Source of the DNA: the human T2T-CHM13v2.0 reference genome, Homo sapiens
NCBI RefSeq assembly: GCF_009914755.1
Contig: NC_060930.1
DNA length: 64,000 bases
Reading direction: 5' to 3' (one strand)
Position numbers and translations under genes: made by a program. Below, piece after piece: positions 1,822-39,740 of the stretch (the first letter of the stretch is position 1; every line of letters begins with the position of its first letter). The notes beneath the pieces are model-generated. The model ran no database searches. It was not told the DNA's origin and saw only the letters and a program-made list of their open reading frames with translations.

Positions 1822-2879
1822 AGGGGACATTCGTTGGTGATATGGGCATCTAATTTAATCTGTAAATATTTAATGTACTCAATGAGTTTACTTACTATCA
1901 CCATGAAATATGCTATACTATCTACACTGCTATAAATGCATCTAAAAATACATCCATTACTAGACAACATTCAGTACAATGTACAATAAACACTACATTC
2001 AGTGTTAAACACAACATTTTACATATAGCTTAGCTATTTAATATCACCACCAGAATCTGCTAAAGGTAGCAGAATGTTTGCAAACTGGATAAAAACTGCT
2101 ATGCTCAACACGAAAAGCAAAGAATCCCCAATCTTATCGCCTCATGATTTCTTTCCCCAAATTTGGCAAAACTGAGCTTGAACACCACACATTATAGAAT
2201 GGAGGCATTGCTTCTCTAAGCAATAATGTCACAAACCCTGCTTCAGAGTCTCTCTTCAGTGAAAATCTCTGAAGAAGGAAATTCACTAAATTGTATTCCA
2301 TCGATCAACAGGTGATTCGTGGAAACACAAACTCATATTCATTTCCAATGAAAATTAATATTGTAAACTCTCCCGTTTTTTCACATATATATATTTACAA
2401 GCTACTGCATTATTATATTGAATGAATTCCAACCGATTTCTTCTCAGAGGCTTACTAGAAAAATGCCAAATATTCAAATTATTTTGGGGCATTAACCCAT
2501 ACTGTTGCATGGAACAGAACGGAATTAATAAGGATCCAACAGTTACCACTTTTCAAATGCAAATATGTTGCCATCTAGTAAATACAGCCCCTTTTTAAAC
2601 ATCCCTCAGTGTCTATACAGTTCAGGGCCCTACTTTTGTTTCTTTGAAAATCAAAATTCGCGCATTACATTGAGACATTATCTCAACTCAGCAACAACAA
2701 CTAAAATAGATATTAACTAGTCCAGCCTGAGTCTACATCGTACAAGACTTTTGCTTTATTTTTTCCTCCCATTTTAGACACACTGTCCCTAAACAATTCT
2801 GCCAAAGGAAACAAACCCTGCAGTGATGAAAAGAATCACGGACACTGGGTTCCACGAACAATAAGGTCGTGGGCTGGTC

Positions 2880-2962
2880 ACCTGCCCGCCTCGGGCCTCA
2901 GTTTTCCTGTCTGTAAAATGTGGCCGCTGGACGAATCACCTATGGGGTCCCATCCGGCCCTC
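2880..2962 (+). mobile_element. MIR core fragment at CpG-island edge
   Basis: gggcctcagttttcctgtctgtaaaatg resembles the MIR core. Confidence 0.6.
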
Positions 2963-3228
2963 TCCCTCCCGGGTGCCTCGCAGCCCGCCCGGGCTCAGCT
3001 GACTGGTGCTGTGGCCAGGGTGCCCTGCCTGCCGCCGCTCTAGATGGAGGAGAAGGGGGGCGAGGGAGGAGAGGAACTTGGACTTGCAACAGCTTCAAAC
3101 AGGAGCCGGCGACAAACTTGAAGCCGTCCTCCTAACAATAGGAAAGAGCACTCCCATTTTCCTGGCTCAAACCTGCGGGACCCCGCGAGGCTGGATCCTC
3201 CCAGCCGCCCTCTCGGAACCCGCTTTAC

Positions 3229-3319
3229 CTTTCTCCCTGTTTGGTGTTAGAAGGAGGAGGGTGCAGGACCGTTTGATTCCCTTCCATCTCCACCACGCAC
3301 TTGGTGTTCAGTTCCAGTT
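3229..3319 (-). CDS. KIF13A: KIF13A coding exon 2 (ELELNTKCVVEMEGNQTVLHPPPSNTKQGE..)
   Basis: Pyrimidine tract plus tttcAG acceptor at 3321-3320; 91-nt exon in frame with exon 1; AG|gtaaag donor at 3228; matches the remembered KIF13A N-terminus. Confidence 0.97.
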
Positions 3320-3583
3320 CTGAAAGCAGAGAGAAAGGGACGTTGCAAAGTCCAGCATCCGCGCCTCCAGCCCGCCCGCCCGCCAGCCGCGCCGAGCGGG
3401 GCTCCGTCCCTGGAGGCGGCCGAGCCTGGAGACGGCGCCCCGGGCACCACGGCCAGCGCGGACGCCGCCTCCGCCCCGGCCCCCCGGCCCCGGCCGCGCT
3501 CTCGCCGTCCCGGCCCCGCAGTTTCTAAAGTTGCCCCCGCCCTCAGCCCGAGCAGAAATAAAAAAGAGCGGAAAGCTCCTCAC

Positions 3584-25860: not shown

Positions 25861-26162
25861 CTCTGCATGACTGTTTAAATACTCGATACTCAAATGCCGA
25901 AACAGGCTCAACACTACCTCCAGAATCTGGACTGATCTTTCTGGTTTCCTTTTCTTGAGATAGGATCTTATAGGCACCCAGATTTGAACGCAGTGGTGTA
26001 AACTTATTAGAACACTTAACTCCTGAGCTAAAGTAATCCTTTGGTAAATTCTTAGGTTCAAGCAATCCCCCCACGACCTCAGGCTCGCAAGTATCTTGGA
26101 CTGTAGATACCTACTGCGTCCAATATTGAGTAGGTTCTTGCTTCACACTAACTTCAAGAATG

Positions 26163-26487
<325 letters not shown>

Positions 26488-26842
26488 AGACTTTCCTAGT
26501 TAAGTATTAGTTCTTAAAAACAGCAAATCCACAGTCTGCTCTTTTCTGATGTGCTGTGAGTCGACGCTTTCTGCTGGTGGGTTCGTGATCTTATCGGCTC
26601 AGAAGTGAGACTGCAAACCTTCACAGTGAATGTCATTAACTCTTAAAGCAGCGTGACTGAAGTTCTGTGTTATTTCCACCAAGTTCGTGGTCTTACTGGC
26701 TGAAAAACTGAAACGGCAGACCTTTTCGGCAAGTCTTATAACTCACAAACACAGCACAATAAATCAAAGGTAAAACAACAATGCACCTATACTATGAAAA
26801 CAAGTTTTTAACAAGTTACCAGTACTAGCTTGGGCAGCCTGC

Positions 26843-27300
26843 TTTTATTCTCTTATCTGGCCCCACCCACATCGCACTGATTGGTCCATTTACAGAGAGC
26901 CAATTGGCCCATTTTACAGAGAGCTGATTGGTCCGATTTGACAGGATGCTGATTGGTGCATTTACAATCCCTGAGCTAGACACAAAAGTTCTCCATGTCT
27001 CCACTAGATTAGCTAGACACAGTGTCCATTGGTGCATTCACAAACCCTGAGCTAGACACAGGGTGCTGATTGGTGTGTTTACAAACCTTGAGCTAGATAC
27101 AGAGTGCCGATTGGTGTATTTACAATCCCTTAGCTAGATATAAAAGTTCTCCAAGTCCCCATCAGAGTAGCTAAATACAGAGTGTCGATTGGTGCATTCA
27201 CAAACCCTGAGCTAGACACAGGGTGCTGATTGGTGTGTTTACAAACCTTGACCTAGATAGCGTGCCGATTGGTGTATTTACAATCCCTTAGCTAGACATA
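26843..27300 (-). promoter_or_regulatory. LTR12 promoter/enhancer: ~10 CCAAT (NF-Y) boxes in tandem units, GT-box, AATAAAA box
   Basis: Repeated ATTGG on plus; ggccccacccac; ttttatt. Confidence 0.8.
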
Positions 27301-27978
27301 AAGAGTCTCCAAGTCCCCACCAGACTTAGAAGCCTAGTTAGCTTCACCGAATGGATCCGGTATGGCGGCCACAGGTAGAGCTGCTTGCTAGTCTCGTGCT
27401 CTGTATCCGCACTTCTCAGCCCTTAAGTGGTTGATGGGACTGGGTGCTGTGGAGAAGAGAGCGGCGCTCGTTGGGGAGGCTCCGGCAGCACAGGAGCCCA
27501 CAGAGTTGGGGGAGGTTCAAGGCATGGCAGGCTGCAGGTCCTGAGCCCTACCCCGCGGGGAGGTAGCTAAGGCGCGGCGAGAAATTGAGCACAGCAGCTG
27601 CTGGCCCAGGTGCTAAGTTCCTCACTGCCCGGACCTTGCGAGCCGGCCGGCCGCTCCGAGTGCGGGGCTCGCTGAGCTCACGGCCACCCAGAACTTGGGC
27701 TGGCTAGCGCGGCGCGCAGTCCCGGTTCCCGACCGCGCCTCTCCCTCCACACTTCCCTGCAAGCTGAGGGAGCTGGCTCCAGCTTTGACCAGTCCAGAAA
27801 GGGGCTCCCACAGTGCAGCGGCGGGCTGAAAAGCTCCTCAAACGCGGCCAGAGTGGGTGCTAAGGCTGAGGAGGCGCCCAGAACGAGCGAGAGCTGTGAG
27901 GGTTGCCAGCATGCTGTCTCCTCTCAATCCTACCACCCCGTGCAGCTAATTTATGTTTACTTTTAAAATTAAAACTCC

Positions 27979-31560
<3,582 letters not shown>

Positions 31561-34452: not shown

Positions 34453-35404
34453 TGAAAGTTTAAACTTTCATTCATCCAACATTTCCTATGCAGTATGTCC
34501 ACATATATCTTTGTGTAACAGTGGTGCACATCCTTTAGAACTAATGCTATGCAGAACAGTTTGGGAAATGGTAACCTGCTCCATGCACTCTCCTTATTTG
34601 GCTGGTGAGTCACCAAAAAAAAAAAGCAAAATAGGAATTTTAAACCCGACCTAACTACAGTGAAACTCAGAAATATACAAATTGCAATGACCTTAAACCC
34701 CAAGAAAAACAAGGCCTAAAATTATAGTAAATGCTTCGAGGGGCAAATTGTCACCTGGTTTAGATGGAAACAGAGATCTGAGCAGCCTGTTGTTTTTCAA
34801 CATTATCTGAGCTGTCTCCTGGTTAGAGAAAAAGCTATTTCCAACTGGACGCCCTCTGCTCATCATTTACACTTCTTTGGTTTGACAAACAAAAGAATGC
34901 TTACTTCAGTCTTATTGGCCGCTAATCAGCCATTTGCTAAGAAAACATCAGGTTTTTAAACACCCATTTATTTATTCGTTTATTTCAGACACACAACCTT
35001 GCTGTATTGCTCAAACTAGATTTGCACTCCTGGAATCCAGTAGATCCTTCTACATCCAGAATTGGTGGGTTCTTGGTCTGACTTAAAGAATGAAGCCACA
35101 GACCCTCACAGTGAGTGTTACGGTTCACTAAAAGCAGTATGTCTGGGCGTTCCTTTATTTTTTTCTGATGTTCATCACGTGTTCAGAATTGTTTTCTATT
35201 AGTGGGTTCCCGGTTTCACCAGCTCAGGAGTGAAAATGCAGACCTTCACGGCGAGTATTACAACCCATACACACAAGGCTGACCCAAACAATGAACAGCA
35301 GCAAGACTTACTATAAAGAACCAAAAAAAAAAAAAAAATTTAAAAAACACCCACAAGGGAGAACAAACCTCGACAAGTTACCACAGCTAGTTTGGGCAGC
35401 CTGC

Positions 35405-36976
35405 TTTTATTCTCTTATCTGGCCCCACCCACATTCTGCTGATTGGTCCACTTTATAGAGAGCTGATTGGTCTGTTTTACAGAGCGCTGATTAGCCCGTT
35501 TTGACAGGGTGCTGATTAGTGTGTTTACAATCTCTGAGCTAGACACAAAAATTCTCCAAGTCCCCACAGAGCACTGATTGGTGCATTTACAAACCTTGAG
35601 CTAGACACAGGGTGCTGATTGGTGTGTTTACAAACCTTGAGCTAGATACAGAGTGCTGATTGGTGTGTTTACAAACATTGAGCTAGATACAGAATGCTAA
35701 TTAGTGTATTTACAATCCCTTAGCTAGACAAAGATTCTCCAACTCCCCACCAGCCTCAGGACCCCAGCTGGCTTCAACTACTGGATCCCGCACCGGGGCC
35801 GCAGGTGCAGCTGCCCGGCAGTCCCGCGCAGTGTGCCCACACTCCTCAGCCCTTGGGCGGTCGATAGGACCGGGCGCTATGGAGCAGAGGGCGGCGATTG
35901 TCGGGGAGGATCGAAGGCGCAGGAGCCCACGGAGGCGGGGGGGAGGCTCGGACATGGCAGGCTGCAGGTCCCGAGCCCTGCCCCGCAGGGAGGCGGTTGA
36001 GGCCCGGCCAAAATTCGAGGCAGCGCCGGCGGGCCGGCACTGCTGAGCGGTGACAGCGTGCTGGCAGCTTTCTCAGCCCTTGCTCTCCGTGCCTCCTCTG
36101 CCTCAGCGCCATTCTGGTAGCGCTGGAGAAGCCCTTCTCTGGGCTGGCCGAGGCGGGAGCCGGCTCCCTTGGCTTCAAAGGAGGTGTAGAGGGGGACGCA
36201 TGGGCGGGAACCAGGGCTGCGCGCGGCGCTTGCGGGCCAGCTAGAGTTCCGCGTGGGTTTGGCAGGCCCCGCAGTTGGAGCGGCCTGGCCGGCTCTGCCG
36301 GCCCCGGGCAGAGGGGCTTAGCACCCGGACCAACAGCTGCGGAGTGTGCGCCGGGTCCCCCAGCAGTGCTGGCCCACTAGTGCTGCGCTCGATTTTTTGC
36401 CAAGCGTTAGCTGCCTCGCCGCAGGACAGTGCTCGGGACCTGCAGCCCGCCATATAGTCCACCCCTGGCGGTGGGCTCCTGCGCGGCCTAAGCTTCTCCG
36501 ACGGGCGCCGCCCCTATGCTTCACAGCGCCCAGTCCCATCAAACGCCCAAACACTGAGAAGTGTAGGCGTCCGGCGCGGGGTTGACAGGCAGCTCCACCT
36601 GCAGCCCTGATAAGAGATCCACTAGGTGAGACTAGCTGAGCTCACTGAGTCTAGTGGGGGCTTAGAAAAAACCTTTATGTCTAGCTAAGGGATTGTAAAT
36701 ACACCAATCAGCATTCTGTGTCTAGCGCAAGGTTTGTAAACACACCAATCAGCACCCTGTGTCTAGCTCAGGGTTTGTAAATACACCAATGGACACTCTG
36801 TATCTAGCTAATCTAGTGGGGATGTGGAAAACTTTTGTGTCTAGCTCAGGAATTGTAAACACACCAATCAGCACCCTGTCAAAACGGACCAATCAGCTCT
36901 CTGTAAAACAGACCAATTGGCGCTCTGTAAAATGGACCAATCAGCAGGATGTGGGTGGGGCCAGGTAAGAATAAAA
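35405..36976. promoter_or_regulatory. Back-to-back LTR12 promoter unit with CpG-island-like core (~35770-36600)
   Basis: Two outward-facing TATA-like boxes, NF-Y arrays on both sides, many intact CpGs. Confidence 0.7.
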
Positions 36977-37356
36977 GCAGGCTGCTAGAACTAGTAGTAG
37001 TAAATGATGAAAACGTTTAGTATCTTGGTATGTGTAGGGTTAAGTGCTTTGGATGTTTGAGTTTTGTTTGCTGTGCTTTTATGGATTGTAATGCCATGAA
37101 GATCTGTAGCTTTAATGTTTTTAGTTAGTGATAAAAGTGTGAATCCGCCAAGAGAAATAAGTAAGTGCTGATGTGTTGGTTTGAGAGCTGTAACATTCAC
37201 TGCTAAGGTCTGTAACTTCTCTCCTGAGCCAGCAAGATAGTAAACCCGCCAGAAAGAAAAAACTTCAGAGAAGACACTACTTTCTACAACTGTAATGCTC
37301 ACTGTGAGGGTCTGCAGTTTCATTTTTGTAAGTCAGACCAAAAACCTGATTGTTGG
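36044..37356 (+). mobile_element. LTR12-family solo LTR (LTR-C, inner), opposite orientation
   Basis: Starts tgagcggtgacagcgtgctggcag; caccaatcagcac repeats; gtgggtggggccag..AATAAAA at 36970-36976; degenerate R/U5. Confidence 0.93.
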
Positions 37357-37769
37357 CCGTTGGGGAACTCTGCGTCCTTTGTAGCTACTGGTGTGAGTGT
37401 AAATTTTCTGTTAAGGGCCAGTAGTGTTTGTTAACTCTCCGGGAGTGCGGGGTGGCAGAGCCCAGGCCTGCACATCCGGAACTCGAGCTGGTTTGCAAGG
37501 GCTGCTGCAGGCCTGATTCTTGCCTGCGCCTCTCCATACGTGCCTGCAAGCTGAGGGAGTCGGCTTGGGCCTCAGCTATTCCAGAAGAGCTCCCACCGTG
37601 CAGCAGCGAGCTGAAAAGCGACTTAAGGAGGGCCAGGGTGGGTGCTGAGGCCTAGAAGGCCCCGTGAGTGAGTGAGAGAGGGCTGAGGGTTGTTAGCGCA
37701 CTGTCATTTCTCAGTTTCCTGAATGGCTGAGACTGCAAGTGTGTGCTACCACACGTTTGGCAACATCAG

Positions 37770-38063
37770 TTTTTCTTTTTGAGACAGGCCCTTATTCTTG
37801 CCTAGGCTGGAGTAGAATAGCATAATTATGACTCACTGCAATCTTCGCCTACTGAACTCATAAGCCTAGCATCCCAGCCTCCTGAGTAACTGGGACTACA
37901 GGTGTGCACCACCCTGGCTGGCTAACTTTTTTTGTATTTTTTGTAGAGATGAGGTTTTGCCGTGTTGCCCAGGCTGGTGTCAAACACCTGGTCTCAAATA
38001 ATCCACCTGTCTCCATCTCCCAACGTGCTGGGATTACAGGCGTAAGGTACCACACCCAGCCCC
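37770..38063 (-). mobile_element. Alu (AluJ-like), LTR-proximal part highly diverged
   Basis: Alu sequence. Confidence 0.85.
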
Positions 38064-39740
38064 AGTGTTTAATTGTAGAACTGAGATAAAATCTTACCTA
38101 CGTTGCTATCAAAGGAATTACTGTGAAACATTTGAAGCTTAAGCTTCAGGTCCTTCATTTAGATGTGCCTTTTTTATAGCTTTTTGCAAATTCTGTACGC
38201 TAAGTAATACTTGGCACAGTAAACTTAAGTTTCTTAATGAGCATCCCGAGTGTATAAACTCCAGACCTCATGCAATTTGGATCCCGTACTAATTGGGCGT
38301 GGTAAGTAACCAGACTGGAAGCTCCGTGAGGGCAAGAGTCCCCCAAGCCCAGCATTCAGAACCTGGCTGACAAGTGATAGGAGTTTAATAAACGTTTGTT
38401 GAGGACTGAGTGCTTGAAGATCATGTACATTTAATAAGGATCTGGAAAATAGTCATTATTAAGTGGCATTTTTTTGTATAAGGTGTCAGGCAGAAAGGAA
38501 AAACGCACTCAAAGATGTTTACATGCAGAAATATGCAAATGTGATTGGTTTCGAATCCACCCACAATACCTACGAAGAGTTTTCAACATCATAGGAACAA
38601 ATTGCAGGTTTAGAAGTGTAAACTTGTCCCTTTGCTCTAAAATGAATTTGCTTTTTCCCACTTACTGTCATCTAGTAGAGACCATCTTTGGAAGACAGCT
38701 GTGGCAGTTTGCCCTTGTCTGCAAGAGCTTGCCAAAGGGGACACTGATGCAACATTAATCATATTCCAAGCTCCATACAGTGCAGGTGAAGTCATTAGAA
38801 CAGCAAACACCCTGTCTGTTCCTTAAGAGACAGATGATTTTCATTCGGTGATAACTGGTATTTTTTGTGATAATGATGGGGAAGGTGAGGGCTTCACGAA
38901 AGCCGGTCAGCAATCAGTTGGGAACACAGGAACAGTGGTGTGTGTGTGCGCATGCACTCACATGGTCTTTGTTATAGCTGCCTCTGTAAATGGAGGGAAA
39001 AAAAACAAACAAAACAAAACAAAACAAAAAAACCAGCTGAATCCCCTGGGAATAGCAATTAACTGCAGCTTCAGTGCCTGAGCTAGTAATACAGTGAGCA
39101 CGAAGACATTGCTGGGCTAGAAAGGTTTTGCTGTTCTTTCCTCCTCCGCTCCTCCTACCTTCTCTGGAATCCTTCCTCGAAGGCGCTCACCCTGCTCATT
39201 ATCATAAAGAATGGCTGGAATGTGAGGATGACTGGGACTCACCCTGCCGTTCCATTGTCTGAATCTTAAACACTGCTCTAGTCTAGTCAAAGGAAATGAA
39301 AACAGAGGGACAACCCAGCTTATAAACACTGGGTACAAGATGTCAGTGCCATCGCTGCTCCCTGGAACACTGCTGTTTGTCACACAGAGCCCCATCTGTT
39401 TAAAGCAGAGGAATGCTCTTTGCTTGAAGAGGAAAGGATGAATTGATAGCAATATTCCCTAGCTTTTTCATTAGAGGGTTTGAAAAATAGTCTTTCCGAA
39501 GAATGACACCTTTATTTATAATCCAATTGAGCTATGAATTTAAGAACATTACTGGGCTGAGGTTTTCATCTGCTTTGATCAAGCCTAAGGTATGGCAGGC
39601 CTCCAAACCTTTCCTTTGAGAATTCTGCTGTTAATGAATTTCGTAAATCTGACAAGTTTTTGCTGCCCCCTCAAAAAAGTATTTGGCTTAATTTTATGGT
39701 GAGCAGAATTCAAAAGGCAAAAGGAAGGAAAATAACAGCT

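What the first reader, a model, noticed from the sequence alone, without database searches (positions are those of the whole stretch)
37357..37713. Built-in control: one LTR, two fates depending on which promoter transcribes it
Seen: the U3 of outer LTR-B is split by the inner LTR. The piece upstream of both TATA boxes (35700-36043) is intact and CpG-rich. The piece downstream of the inner plus-strand promoter has lost C on the PLUS strand. LTR-A ctggcccaggtgctaagttcctcactgcccgg (27601-) corresponds to ctggtgtgagtgtaaattttctgttaagg (37388-), and ggttgccagc corresponds to ggttgttagc. The same element's own R/U5 (35051-35390) instead lost G on plus (35261-35380: 14 G vs 29 C). Inference: the polarity of mutation follows the direction of transcription, not element age or orientation, so it arose after insertion, in the germline.
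Basis: partly seen in the sequence, partly recalled or inferred. Interest (0 to 1): 0.85.

Follow-up and report, generated by a model that had tools for sequence, protein, structure and literature searches.

The report
Nested LTR12s with strand-specific cytosine loss
Three old retroviral promoter remnants (ERV9/LTR12 solo LTRs), one inserted inside another, have each lost cytosines mainly on the strand that lies downstream of a promoter and would be left unpaired by transcription, which makes the locus a natural experiment on how transcription mutates inherited DNA.

Summary
Window 37357-37713 is the 5' end of a minus-strand LTR12 (LTR-B). A plus-strand LTR12 (LTR-C, 36044-37356) cut it off from the rest of B (35051-36043) and left a 4-bp target duplication.

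I compared the pieces pairwise with 82 other genomic LTR12 copies and built no consensus. The cut-off piece has a net 9.25 C>T per 100 nt on the window + strand, and 0 of 82 copies reach that (maximum 3.13). The adjoining part of B on the other side of C has none (-1.9).

R/U5 of all three local LTRs (A, B, C) has the mirror pattern on each element's own sense strand: 7.5-8.5 per 100, with 0 of 82 copies reaching it. In each LTR the excess starts within 50 nt of the TATA-like box. From C it runs on into B's piece, to +749.

There is no APOBEC3 dinucleotide context, the changes are not shared between the LTRs, and there is no sign of gene conversion.

Best reading: post-insertion, transcription-start-anchored cytosine loss on the non-template strand, a known kind of asymmetry that is unusually strong here.

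Limits:
- No expression data.
- Flank evidence is weak.
- The next Alu shows no asymmetry.
- No family-wide signal in downstream flanks.

Family and age: long-form LTR12 (C/D/E type), about 6-20 My old by print.

The parts
26113..26162 (-). LTR-A, last ~50 nt of U5, cut off from the rest of A by an Alu
   Evidence: Matches the last 38-50 nt of other LTR12 copies. On the window + strand G>A 3.1 against A>G 0.2 per copy.
26163..26488 (+). Young Alu inserted in LTR-A's U5 (a neighbour, not part of the LTR); bounds approximate
   Evidence: blastn hit 26167-26475 plus an A-run. Net changes lie below the Alu mean.
26489..27928 (-). LTR-A main body, a solo LTR12 of the long form. TATA-like box 26843-26849; R/U5 below ~26815; 41-nt CCAAT repeats ~26870-27300; 5' extension 27300-27928.
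   Evidence: R/U5 net sense C>T is 8.36 per 100 nt, and 0 of 82 copies reach it.
35051..36043 (-). LTR-B, 3' piece. R/U5 35051-~35380; TATA-like box 35405-35411; 41-nt repeats ~35420-35740; CpG-rich U3 part 35744-36043.
   Evidence: R/U5 net sense C>T is 7.45 per 100 (0 of 82 reach it). The U3 part next to the junction has net G>A -1.94 and net C>T -0.35.
36040..36043 (.). Left copy of the 4-bp target-site duplication made by LTR-C
   Evidence: 4-nt overlap on 47 of 84 ruler copies.
36044..37356 (+). LTR-C, a solo LTR12 nested in B. 5' extension 36044-~36650; 41-nt repeats ~36650-36960; TATA-like box 36970-36976; R/U5 ~37000-37356.
   Evidence: R/U5 net sense C>T is 8.54 per 100, and 0 of 82 copies reach it.
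37357..37713 (-). LTR-B, 5' piece of U3 (the finding). The first 4 nt are the right copy of the target duplication. About a third of the cytosines on the window + strand have been lost.
35750..36650 (.). CpG-island-like block made of the two head-to-head U3 parts, lying upstream of both TATA-like boxes
   Evidence: 901 nt, G+C 0.68, 73 CpG, observed/expected 0.69.
34967..35050 (-). Alu-like fragment flanking B's U5 end (host DNA downstream of B's promoter)
   Evidence: Local alignment to 45 window Alus. On the window + strand G>A 5.4 against A>G 1.6, and C>T 3.8 against T>C 3.2.
37714..37764 (-). Alu-like fragment flanking B's 5' end (host DNA downstream of C's promoter)
   Evidence: On the window + strand C>T 3.0 against T>C 1.0, and G>A 3.0 against A>G 3.1, over ~36 nt.

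Best explanation
LTR-B, a minus-strand ERV9/LTR12 solo LTR, was hit in its U3 by a second ERV9 element. Only the plus-strand solo LTR-C of that element remains. After that insertion, each stretch lying downstream of an LTR12 transcription start lost cytosines on the non-template strand of that start. The losses were mainly C>T, with some C>G. This happened in B's own R/U5 (and in A's) on the minus strand. It also happened in C's R/U5 and, without a break, in B's cut-off U3 piece (37357-37713) on the plus strand.

The most likely cause is deamination of cytosine while the non-template strand is unpaired near an active germline or early-embryo promoter, in a transcription bubble or R-loop. This is the localised [C>T]/[G>A] asymmetry already described for the first 1-2 kb of mammalian genes, here unusually strong.

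The U3 parts between the two starts (35750-36650) are upstream of both and kept their CpGs, forming a CpG-island-like block.

What is shown: the anatomy, the polarity, its onset at the TATA-like boxes, its crossing of the C/B border, and its absence on the other side of C. What is inferred: that transcription is the cause, that it took place in the germ line of ancestors, and that the deamination was spontaneous rather than enzymatic.
For: (1) Nested insertion with a 4-nt duplication: 47 of 84 rulers.

(2) B's cut-off piece has net C>T on the window + strand of 9.25 per 100 nt, and 0 of 82 other copies reach it. At non-CpG sites alone the counts are 28.4 against 3.2.

(3) The neighbouring B piece across the insertion has -1.94. 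So the change of regime lies at the insertion point.

(4) R/U5 of A, B and C has net sense-strand C>T of 8.36, 7.45 and 8.54 per 100, and 0 of 82 copies reach any of these (maximum 5.06).

(5) In 50-nt bins, C>T on the non-template strand is 0.1-2.3 per bin in the four bins before each TATA-like box and 2.1-6.7 after it, in all three LTRs. From C it continues into B's piece at 2.0-9.4 per bin, as far as +749.

(6) There is no deaminase dinucleotide context. The share of G changed in B's piece, by 3' neighbour, is A 0.28, C 0.31, G 0.36, T 0.36.

(7) The changes in A, B and C fall on different sites (observed joint shares about equal to expected). They are therefore not inherited subfamily letters.

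(8) C>G on the same strand is also in excess in B's piece (9.9 against 2.1; net beyond all 55 copies).

(9) The right copy of the target duplication has diverged from the left copy, which still matches the other copies.

(10) In all three downstream flanks the predicted type is net positive (+2.0, +3.8, +2.0 changes), while the complementary type is -1.3, +0.6, -0.1.

(11) Print:
- LTR12C is the top LTR promoter of chimeric transcripts in human oocytes and testis (PMC8767690, passages).
- LTR12C/D carry an unexplained excess of G-to-A on their negative strand (PMC11853044, passage citing Anwar 2013).
Against: - No expression, methylation or R-loop data for these three LTRs could be consulted. 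RefSeq lists no transcript here.
- The right end of the affected stretch lies within about 50 nt of B's own 5' end, which a pre-integration process would also predict.
- The whole Alu that follows (37770-38057, +800 to +1085) shows no asymmetry. On the window + strand net C>T is 2.29 and net G>A 3.11 per 100. At non-CpG sites the values are 1.36 and 2.72.
- Flank counts are only 2-4 changes each.
- B's repeat block has a slight net G>A on its sense strand (2.25 per 100; 1 of 55 copies reach it), as pre-integration editing would give.
- The effect is not general in the family. Among 55 copies, C/T and G/A mismatches in R/U5 differ by a factor of 1.30, about what base content gives.
- The 300 nt downstream of 73 copies have a sense-strand GC skew of 0.021 +/- 0.017. 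That skew is not correlated with R/U5 C>T (rho 0.12, p 0.29).
- CpG retention in U3 correlates only weakly with R/U5 C>T (rho 0.23, p 0.04 pooled, n=82; p 0.09 and p 0.14 in the two subsets).
- Why these three neighbours are all extreme is unexplained.
- Transversions are also raised in the affected stretches (31.7 per 338 nt in B's piece, against 16.0 and 20.7 in A and C). Some of this may be misalignment.
Confidence: 0.65

Rival explanations
1. Same place and time (after insertion, downstream of the starts), but the cytosines were removed by an AID/APOBEC-type deaminase acting on R-loops or transcription bubbles. Uracil excision would then give the C>G changes. This replaces spontaneous deamination as the cause.
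For: C>T and C>G are both in excess on the same strand. The size of the effect is large for a spontaneous process: about 0.38 of sites changed in B's piece, against 0.08-0.14 for the comparison classes. PMC2927911 itself discusses a somatic-hypermutation-like process for the localised asymmetry (passage). Two 2026 preprints tie germline hypermutability of short, highly transcribed genes to AID/APOBEC or R-loops (starts of abstracts in the search listing only).
Against: There is no TC, CC or WRC-type preference. The changed shares by neighbour are flat in B's piece (0.28-0.36). In R/U5 they are highest after G and at CpG, not after T.
Confidence: 0.15
2. LTR-B was edited by an APOBEC3 protein during reverse transcription, before it integrated. 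This would give G>A on its sense strand, which is C>T on the window + strand. The contrast with the rest of B would then be chance or later repair.
For: The polarity in 37357-37713 is G>A on B's own sense strand. The affected stretch ends within about 50 nt of B's 5' end. B's repeat block has a slight net G>A (2.25 per 100). LTR12C copies are reported to carry GG-to-AG footprints (PMC11853044, passage citing Ito 2020).
Against: There is no GG or GA preference (3' neighbour G 0.36, A 0.28, C 0.31, T 0.36). The 300 nt of B just across the insertion have net G>A -1.94, and B's R/U5 has -0.62. The same window-strand polarity runs on from C's own R/U5, where it is C>T on C's sense strand. The right copy of the target duplication, identical to the left at C's insertion, has since changed. 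From general knowledge of retroviral editing gradients (recalled, not tested), the part of U3 next to the polypurine tract should be the least edited.
Confidence: 0.07
3. A strand asymmetry linked to replication or some other regional process, for example an origin in the CpG-rich block. It would switch sign between the two LTRs and have nothing to do with their promoters.
For: The sign change is G-poor on the + strand to the left and C-poor on the + strand to the right. That is the sense expected at an origin (recalled). GC skew rises to +0.41 and +0.51 at 36900-37199.
Against: The effect starts within 50 nt of each of three TATA-like boxes, including the lone LTR-A 8 kb away. It spans only 0.3-0.75 kb. 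Alus between and beside the LTRs show no matching asymmetry.
Confidence: 0.05
4. All of B was hypermutated, and the piece left of C was later overwritten by gene conversion from C or from another LTR12. The tract would have stopped where homology is broken by C.
For: B-left and C are inverted repeats 89% alike over 130-155 nt, an arrangement prone to conversion.
Against: B-left is no closer to C than to unrelated copies: 0.752 against a mean of 0.811 in the U3 part, and 0.871 against 0.876 in the repeats. Its best genomic matches are only 0.79-0.93 alike. B-left carries its own opposite-strand hypermutation in R/U5.
Confidence: 0.03
5. 37357-37713 is an independent, older LTR12 fragment that merely abuts C.
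For: It is only 70-75% alike to any other copy and has more transversions than its counterparts in A and C.
Against: Its end and the start of 35051-36043 meet with a 4-nt overlap on 47 of 84 rulers, and the others mostly lack the stretch. The excess is of one transition type on one strand, not general decay.
Confidence: 0.02

Closest known systems
Localised transcription-associated strand asymmetry at the 5' end of mammalian genes (Polak and co-workers; PMC2927911 read in passages; the 2008 paper it cites was not seen)
   Same: More C>T than G>A on the non-template strand. It is confined to the first 1-2 kb after the start and stronger at CpG-island promoters. It is ascribed to single-strandedness of the non-template strand.
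   Different: That result is a small average over thousands of genes. Here single promoters of retroviral origin show about a third of the cytosines changed on one strand, with 0 of 82 family members comparable. The polarity can also be read in one split element.
Unexplained excess of G-to-A on the negative strand of LTR12C and LTR12D (Anwar et al. 2013, known here only through one sentence of the review PMC11853044; the paper itself is not held)
   Same: Same family and same polarity: C>T on the LTR's sense strand. It is not explicable by APOBEC3 editing of minus-strand cDNA.
   Different: I could not see where in the LTR that excess lies or how large it is. In my 55-copy panel the family-wide excess in R/U5 is small (mismatch ratio 1.30, about what base content gives).
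APOBEC3 G-to-A hypermutation of endogenous retroviruses (for LTR12C: GG-to-AG, Ito et al. 2020, via PMC11853044)
   Same: Strand-specific transitions from cytosine deamination. In B's cut-off piece the changes are G>A on the element's sense strand.
   Different: There is no GG/GA context. The changes are confined to the part of B downstream of another promoter, they are of opposite polarity in R/U5, and they continue across an element border.
GC-skewed, R-loop-forming CpG-island promoters, and AID-driven somatic hypermutation downstream of starts (recalled; the latter is also discussed in PMC2927911)
   Same: G over C on the non-template strand just after the start. An unmethylated CpG block lies upstream. 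C>T together with C>G on one strand within about 1 kb of the start.
   Different: No R-loop or methylation data here, and no WRC context.

Membership tests
ERV9 / LTR12 long terminal repeat | U3 with tandem repeats of about 41 nt carrying CCAAT (PMC11853044) | tested here: met
   Start-to-start spacing of 41 nt in all three LTRs (families D4 and D19). CCAAT occurs 10, 5 and 7 times in the repeat blocks of A, B and C.
ERV9 / LTR12 long terminal repeat | GATA-type motif and G-rich motif as printed in the review (PMC11853044) | tested here: met
   The printed 13-nt GATA motif is found 1, 2 and 1 times in A, B and C. The printed 7-nt G-rich motif is found 0, 1 and 1 times, so it is absent in A.
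ERV9 / LTR12 long terminal repeat | Thousands of copies in the human genome | tested here: met
   The first look found 3117, 3310 and 2762 candidates for the three repeat blocks, of which only 39-40 each were scored.
LTR12C/D/E (long form) | About 600 nt of 5' extension upstream of the repeats (PMC8767690; PMC11853044) | tested here: met
   About 615-650 nt lie 5' of the repeats in A and C, and in B as two pieces. Which of C, D or E applies could not be told, since no named family models are on hand. A lacks a ~45-nt stretch that B and C hold.
ERV9 / LTR12 long terminal repeat | 72-bp repeats in U5 (PMC11853044) | not tested
   R/U5 of all three is too decayed (identity 0.67-0.74 to other copies), and I did not look for the unit.
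Nested retroviral insertion | The host element is continuous across the insert, with a short target-site duplication | tested here: met
   4-nt overlap on 47 of 84 rulers; 29 lack the stretch; 8 gave other values. 2 of 4 duplicated positions now differ. The 4-bp length for this class of virus is recalled.
Solo LTR | No internal viral sequence next to the LTR | tested here: met
   C is flanked by B on both sides. A and B are flanked by Alu-like host repeats. A and B are not a proviral pair: they are less alike than each is to other copies, and they are of different structural variants. The 7 kb between A and B was not searched for viral genes.
APOBEC3 hypermutation before integration | G>A on the element's sense strand | tested here: met
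   B's cut-off piece: G>A 36.4 against A>G 5.1.
APOBEC3 hypermutation before integration | GG or GA dinucleotide preference | tested here: not met
   Changed share by 3' neighbour: G 0.36, A 0.28, C 0.31, T 0.36.
APOBEC3 hypermutation before integration | Editing spread over the element, bounded by the element's ends | tested here: not met
   Absent in the 300 nt across the insertion (-1.94) and in R/U5 (-0.62). The repeat block has a slight excess (2.25). The right end does lie near B's end.
Transcription-associated localised asymmetry | C>T exceeds G>A on the non-template strand | tested here: met
   This holds downstream of all three TATA-like boxes.
Transcription-associated localised asymmetry | Begins at the start of transcription and fades within 1-2 kb | tested here: met
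   There is a step in the first 50-nt bin after each box. From C it is seen to +749. Net + strand C>T falls to 2-4 per 100 in the Alu at +800 to +1085, where G>A is as high.
Transcription-associated localised asymmetry | Independent of what sequence lies downstream (it crosses element borders) | tested here: inconclusive
   Clear at the C/B border. Beyond the ends of A and B there are only 2-4 net changes of the right sign. There is no skew in the flanks of 73 other copies.
Transcription-associated localised asymmetry | The promoter is active in the germ line | not testable with these tools
   There is family-level print only (PMC8767690).
CpG island | Over 200 nt, G+C above 0.5, CpG observed/expected above 0.6 (criteria recalled) | tested here: met
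   35750-36650: 901 nt, G+C 0.68, observed/expected 0.69. Other copies' 5' U3 have a mean of 0.49, range 0.20-0.70.

The most novel reading that the evidence does not exclude
A subset of LTR12 promoters undergoes a strong germline hypermutation anchored at the start of transcription. It removes cytosines (C>T and C>G) from the displaced strand for at least 0.75 kb, whatever sequence lies there. This is the cause of the published, unexplained negative-strand G-to-A excess of LTR12C/D. At this locus two head-to-head LTRs have built a CpG island with divergent starts, and together with a third LTR 8 kb away they mark a germline-active domain upstream of KIF13A. The process has erased about a third of the cytosines on one strand within roughly 20 million years or less.
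Probability: 0.3. Interest if true: 0.65.

Novelty: new member of a known kind. Interest (0 to 1): 0.5.

Why it matters
Strand asymmetries tied to transcription are known only as small averages over many genes, so cause and effect are hard to separate from selection and base composition.

Here one LTR is split into a part upstream of every promoter and a part downstream of a foreign promoter of the opposite orientation. Age, origin, family and chromosomal place are therefore held constant, and only the position relative to a start differs. The two parts differ by about 11 net changes per 100 nt on one strand.

If ape orthologues confirm the timing, the locus gives a rate for promoter-proximal cytosine loss in the primate germ line. 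It would also give a simple explanation for an anomaly reported for LTR12C/D.

There is a practical warning too. Dating or subfamily typing of LTR12 copies from R/U5 divergence, and scans for APOBEC3 footprints that count G>A by strand, can be misled by this process.

Tried and rejected
Independent older fragment: rejected.

Pre-integration APOBEC3 editing: rejected on context and distribution.

Shared subfamily letters in R/U5: rejected. The joint shares of changed sites in A, B and C are about as expected for independence, for example A and C 0.186 against 0.178.

A and B as the two LTRs of one provirus: rejected. Their identity is 0.70-0.87, below each one's mean to other copies, and they are different structural variants.

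Gene conversion between B-left and C: rejected.

Artefact of my transition-lenient scoring: checked with blastn at +1/-1. The direction is the same.

Artefact of panel choice:
- Set 1 was chosen by likeness to the finding itself, which works against the effect.
- Sets 2 and 3 were chosen by the repeat block.
- A same-variant panel of 22 gave 9.35.

Rows dropped before counts:
- L038, an inverted LTR12 pair.
- L047, truncated at 934 nt.
- L057, 2159 nt.
- L001, L031 and L061, which are the window itself.
- In set 3, 27 of 29 loci had all the segments needed.

Generalising to the family led to little:
- Flank skew gave nothing.
- The correlation with CpG retention is weak.

B's own target duplication could not be recognised. 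2 of 4 flanking positions agree, and the two Alu-like flanks do not abut cleanly.

Print:
- No held paper joins LTR12 with asymmetry and deamination in this sense. One search found 1 paper, unrelated. In one search, none of the 15 papers listed holds the term LTR12. One search (KIF13A with LTR12) found 0 papers.
- Anwar 2013 is not held.
- Supplementary tables of PMC8767690, which list the LTR12C loci expressed in oocyte and embryo, may bear on whether these LTRs are transcribed. They are closed.
Full report
WHAT IS THERE.

The window holds three LTRs of one family within 11.6 kb. All three have a block of tandem units spaced 41 nt apart, each with a CCAAT box (10, 5 and 7 CCAAT). They carry the GATA-type and G-rich motifs printed in a review of LTR12 (PMC11853044, passages; the G-rich one is absent in A). 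Each has an AATAAAA box after the repeats and about 620-650 nt of CpG-rich sequence before them. Their repeat blocks find 2762-3310 first-look candidates in the same genome. This is ERV9/LTR12 in its long form. Two papers assign the ~600-nt 5' extension to LTR12C, D and E (PMC8767690; PMC11853044). I could not tell C, D and E apart without named family models.

- LTR-A lies on the minus strand at 26489-27928. Its last ~50 nt are at 26113-26162, beyond a young Alu that split its U5.
- LTR-B lies on the minus strand in two pieces, 35051-36043 and 37357-37713.
- LTR-C lies on the plus strand at 36044-37356, between those two pieces.
- All three are solo LTRs. C is flanked by B, and A and B are flanked by Alu-like host fragments.
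- No viral gene is part of this finding. I looked for none and translated nothing.

IS B REALLY ONE LTR SPLIT BY C?

I used other genomic copies as rulers and compared B's pieces apart.
- The end of 37357-37713 and the start of 35051-36043 overlap by exactly 4 ruler positions in 47 of 84 copies.
- Another 29 copies (overlap 40-55) belong to a variant that lacks a ~45-nt stretch holding the junction. A is of that variant.
- The other 8 copies gave other values.
- So C inserted into B's U3 and duplicated 4 nt (36040-36043 and 37357-37360). The left copy still reads like the other copies, and the right copy differs at 2 of 4 positions.

It follows that B is older than C. A and B are not the two LTRs of one provirus. 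They are less alike (0.70-0.87 by segment) than each is to unrelated copies, and they differ in structure.

THE ASYMMETRY.

To keep to the rule against consensus sequences, I compared each piece pairwise with other genomic LTR12 copies. For every pair I counted copy-has-X, piece-has-Y. The net of a change and its reverse, averaged over copies, measures what the piece has lost more than the others have. Each reference copy was treated the same way against the rest, to give a null distribution.

The panel held 55 copies. There were 29 chosen by likeness to the finding, which works against the effect, and 29 chosen by the repeat block. Three were dropped: an inverted pair, one truncated copy and one over-long copy. 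A third set, chosen by B's repeat block, added 27 of 29.

In 37357-37713 (all unless another call is named):
- On the window + strand, C>T is 36.4 per copy against T>C 5.1.
- G>A is 15.4 against A>G 10.5.
- Net C>T is 9.25 per 100 nt.
- No reference copy reaches it: 0 of 55 (maximum 3.0, sd 1.16), and 0 of 82 with the third set (maximum 3.13).
- The homologous parts of A and C give 2.71 and -0.46.
- The 300 nt of B just across the insertion (35744-36043) give -1.94.
- At non-CpG sites alone the piece has 28.4 against 3.2.
- A panel of 22 same-variant copies gives 9.35.
- Plain blastn alignments give 19.2 against 3.3 over the 237 nt they can align (46 of 55 copies).
- The density is highest next to C: about 19 per 100 in the first 57 nt, then about 8-10.

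THE MIRROR IMAGE.

R/U5 of A, B and C has net C>T on each element's own sense strand of 8.36, 7.45 and 8.54 per 100 nt. None of the 82 copies reaches these values (maximum 5.06). Net G>A there is ordinary (1.22, -0.62, 0.82).
- On the window this is G loss on the + strand for A and B, and C loss on the + strand for C.
- The changed sites in the three LTRs are no more shared than chance predicts. So they are independent events and not subfamily letters.

WHERE IT STARTS AND STOPS.

In 50-nt bins measured from each AATAAAA box, C>T on the non-template strand behaves as follows:
- In the four bins upstream it is 0.1-2.3 per bin.
- From the first bin downstream it is 2.1-6.7 per bin, in all three LTRs.
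- Downstream of C's box it runs through C's U5 and on into B's piece without a drop (2.0-9.4 per bin), up to +749, where B ends.

Beyond the LTR ends the evidence is thin. In the Alu-like flanks the predicted type is net +2.0 (left of A), +3.8 (left of B) and +2.0 (right of B) changes over 36-62 nt. The complementary type is -1.3, +0.6 and -0.1.

The whole Alu at 37770-38057 (+800 to +1085) has + strand net C>T of 2-4 per 100 by thirds, but G>A is as high. Over the whole Alu the values are 2.29 and 3.11 per 100, and at non-CpG sites 1.36 and 2.72. It is the most diverged of the 45 whole Alus in the window (identity 0.72). So the asymmetry is not seen there.

WHAT KIND OF CHANGE.

About 0.38 of the sites that are G in other copies are A in B's piece (sense strand). 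The figure is 0.13 and 0.08 in A and C, and 0.14 for C>T in the same piece.
- The share does not depend on the neighbour: 3' A 0.28, C 0.31, G 0.36, T 0.36. After a 5' C, the CpG case, it is 0.45.
- In R/U5 the share of C changed is highest at CpG (0.52-0.72) and shows no TC or CC preference.
- C>G on the same strand is also in excess. In B's piece it is 9.9 against 2.1, with the net beyond all 55 copies. In R/U5 the nets are 1.0-1.5 per 100, reached by 1, 6 and 3 of 55 copies.

EXPLANATION.

The pattern is what a process tied to the start of transcription predicts. It acts on the non-template strand, and it acted after C arrived. This matches the localised asymmetry described for mammalian genes. 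There [C>T]/[G>A] exceeds one only in the first 1-2 kb, it is stronger at CpG-island promoters, and it is ascribed to single-strandedness near the start (PMC2927911, passages).

LTR12C is reported as the most frequent LTR promoter of chimeric transcripts in human oocytes and testis (PMC8767690, passages), so germline activity of such promoters is plausible.

The U3 parts between the two divergent boxes form a CpG-island-like block: 901 nt, G+C 0.68, observed/expected 0.69. Other copies' 5' U3 average 0.49. This fits low germline methylation.

The review also records that LTR12C and LTR12D carry more G-to-A on their negative strand than APOBEC3 can explain (PMC11853044, passage citing a paper I could not read). 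A start-anchored loss of sense-strand C would give just that.

WHAT SPEAKS AGAINST IT, OR LIMITS IT.

- I have no expression, methylation or R-loop data for these LTRs.
- The right end of the affected stretch nearly coincides with B's own end, and the next Alu is not asymmetric. A process confined to B would look the same on that side.
- The effect is not general. Among 55 copies the C/T to G/A mismatch ratio in R/U5 is 1.30, about what base content gives.
- The 300 nt after 73 other copies have a sense-strand GC skew of 0.021 +/- 0.017, with no link to R/U5 C>T (rho 0.12, p 0.29).
- CpG retention in U3 goes with R/U5 C>T only weakly (rho 0.23, p 0.04 for 82 copies; p 0.09 and 0.14 in the two subsets).
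- Why three neighbours are all beyond 82 other copies is unexplained. A locally open, germline-active domain is a guess. RefSeq lists a stem-cell enhancer at 38428-39382.

RIVALS.

- Pre-integration APOBEC3 editing of B fails on context, on its absence from the rest of B and on the continuity with C's R/U5.
- An independent fragment fails on the 4-nt overlap.
- Gene conversion of B-left fails on identity.
- A replication-linked switch does not explain three onsets at three boxes.
- An enzyme acting on the displaced strand after insertion remains possible, given the C>G excess and the size of the effect. The flat context does not favour it.

AGE AND FAMILY.

By print, ERV9 entered about 30 My ago. 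The long 5' extension is almost confined to hominoids and spread about 20 My ago, and activity ended about 6 My ago (PMC8767690; PMC11853044).

In the parts not hit by the asymmetry, A, B and C are 0.76-0.91 alike to other copies. Those copies are 0.84-0.90 alike to each other. So the three are as old as, or somewhat older than, the average sampled copy, probably in the older part of the 6-20 My span.

Relative order: B came before C, and A came before the Alu in its U5. A firmer date needs orthologues, which I could not fetch.

VERDICT.

It is a striking single-locus case of a known kind of mutational asymmetry in a known family. It is not a new kind of system.

Noticed in passing
L038 (G000 C6:48823498-48826832), locus 1369-2226 and 2472-3330: Another head-to-head LTR12 pair on chr6. 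Here it is an inverted repeat 91.9% alike over 860 nt with a 245-nt spacer, so an inverted duplication rather than a nested insertion.
   Followed up: partly
window 26113-26488: LTR-A's U5 is split by a young Alu (~26163-26488, + strand). The last ~50 nt of A lie at 26113-26162.
   Followed up: yes
window 27580-27610 and the B/C junction region: There are two structural variants of the long LTR12 form. B, C and 47 of 84 other copies hold a ~45-nt stretch that A and 29 of 84 copies lack.
   Followed up: partly
window 37770-38057: This Alu (- strand) is the most diverged of the 45 whole Alus in the window (mean identity 0.72). It has excess transitions on both strands. Its non-CpG C>T on the Alu sense strand is the highest of the 45. 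Unexplained.
   Followed up: partly
window 38428-39382: RefSeq lists an 'OCT4-NANOG-H3K27ac hESC enhancer' 0.7 kb to the right of LTR-B.
   Followed up: no
window 26826-27165, 35390-35696, 36668-36988: Only the 41-nt repeat blocks of the three LTRs are soft-masked in the assembly. The 5' extensions and R/U5 are not.
   Followed up: no
window 26030-26112, 27929-27990, 34967-35050, 37714-37764: Both A and B sit within antisense Alu-like fragments. B's two flanks do not abut cleanly in Alu coordinates, and its own target duplication is not recognisable.
   Followed up: partly
window 27329-27628 (LTR-A, middle of U3): A's U3 part has net G>A 4.57 and net C>T 3.17 per 100, each beyond all 55 copies. 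This is symmetric, CpG-type decay, unlike the one-strand loss elsewhere.
   Followed up: no
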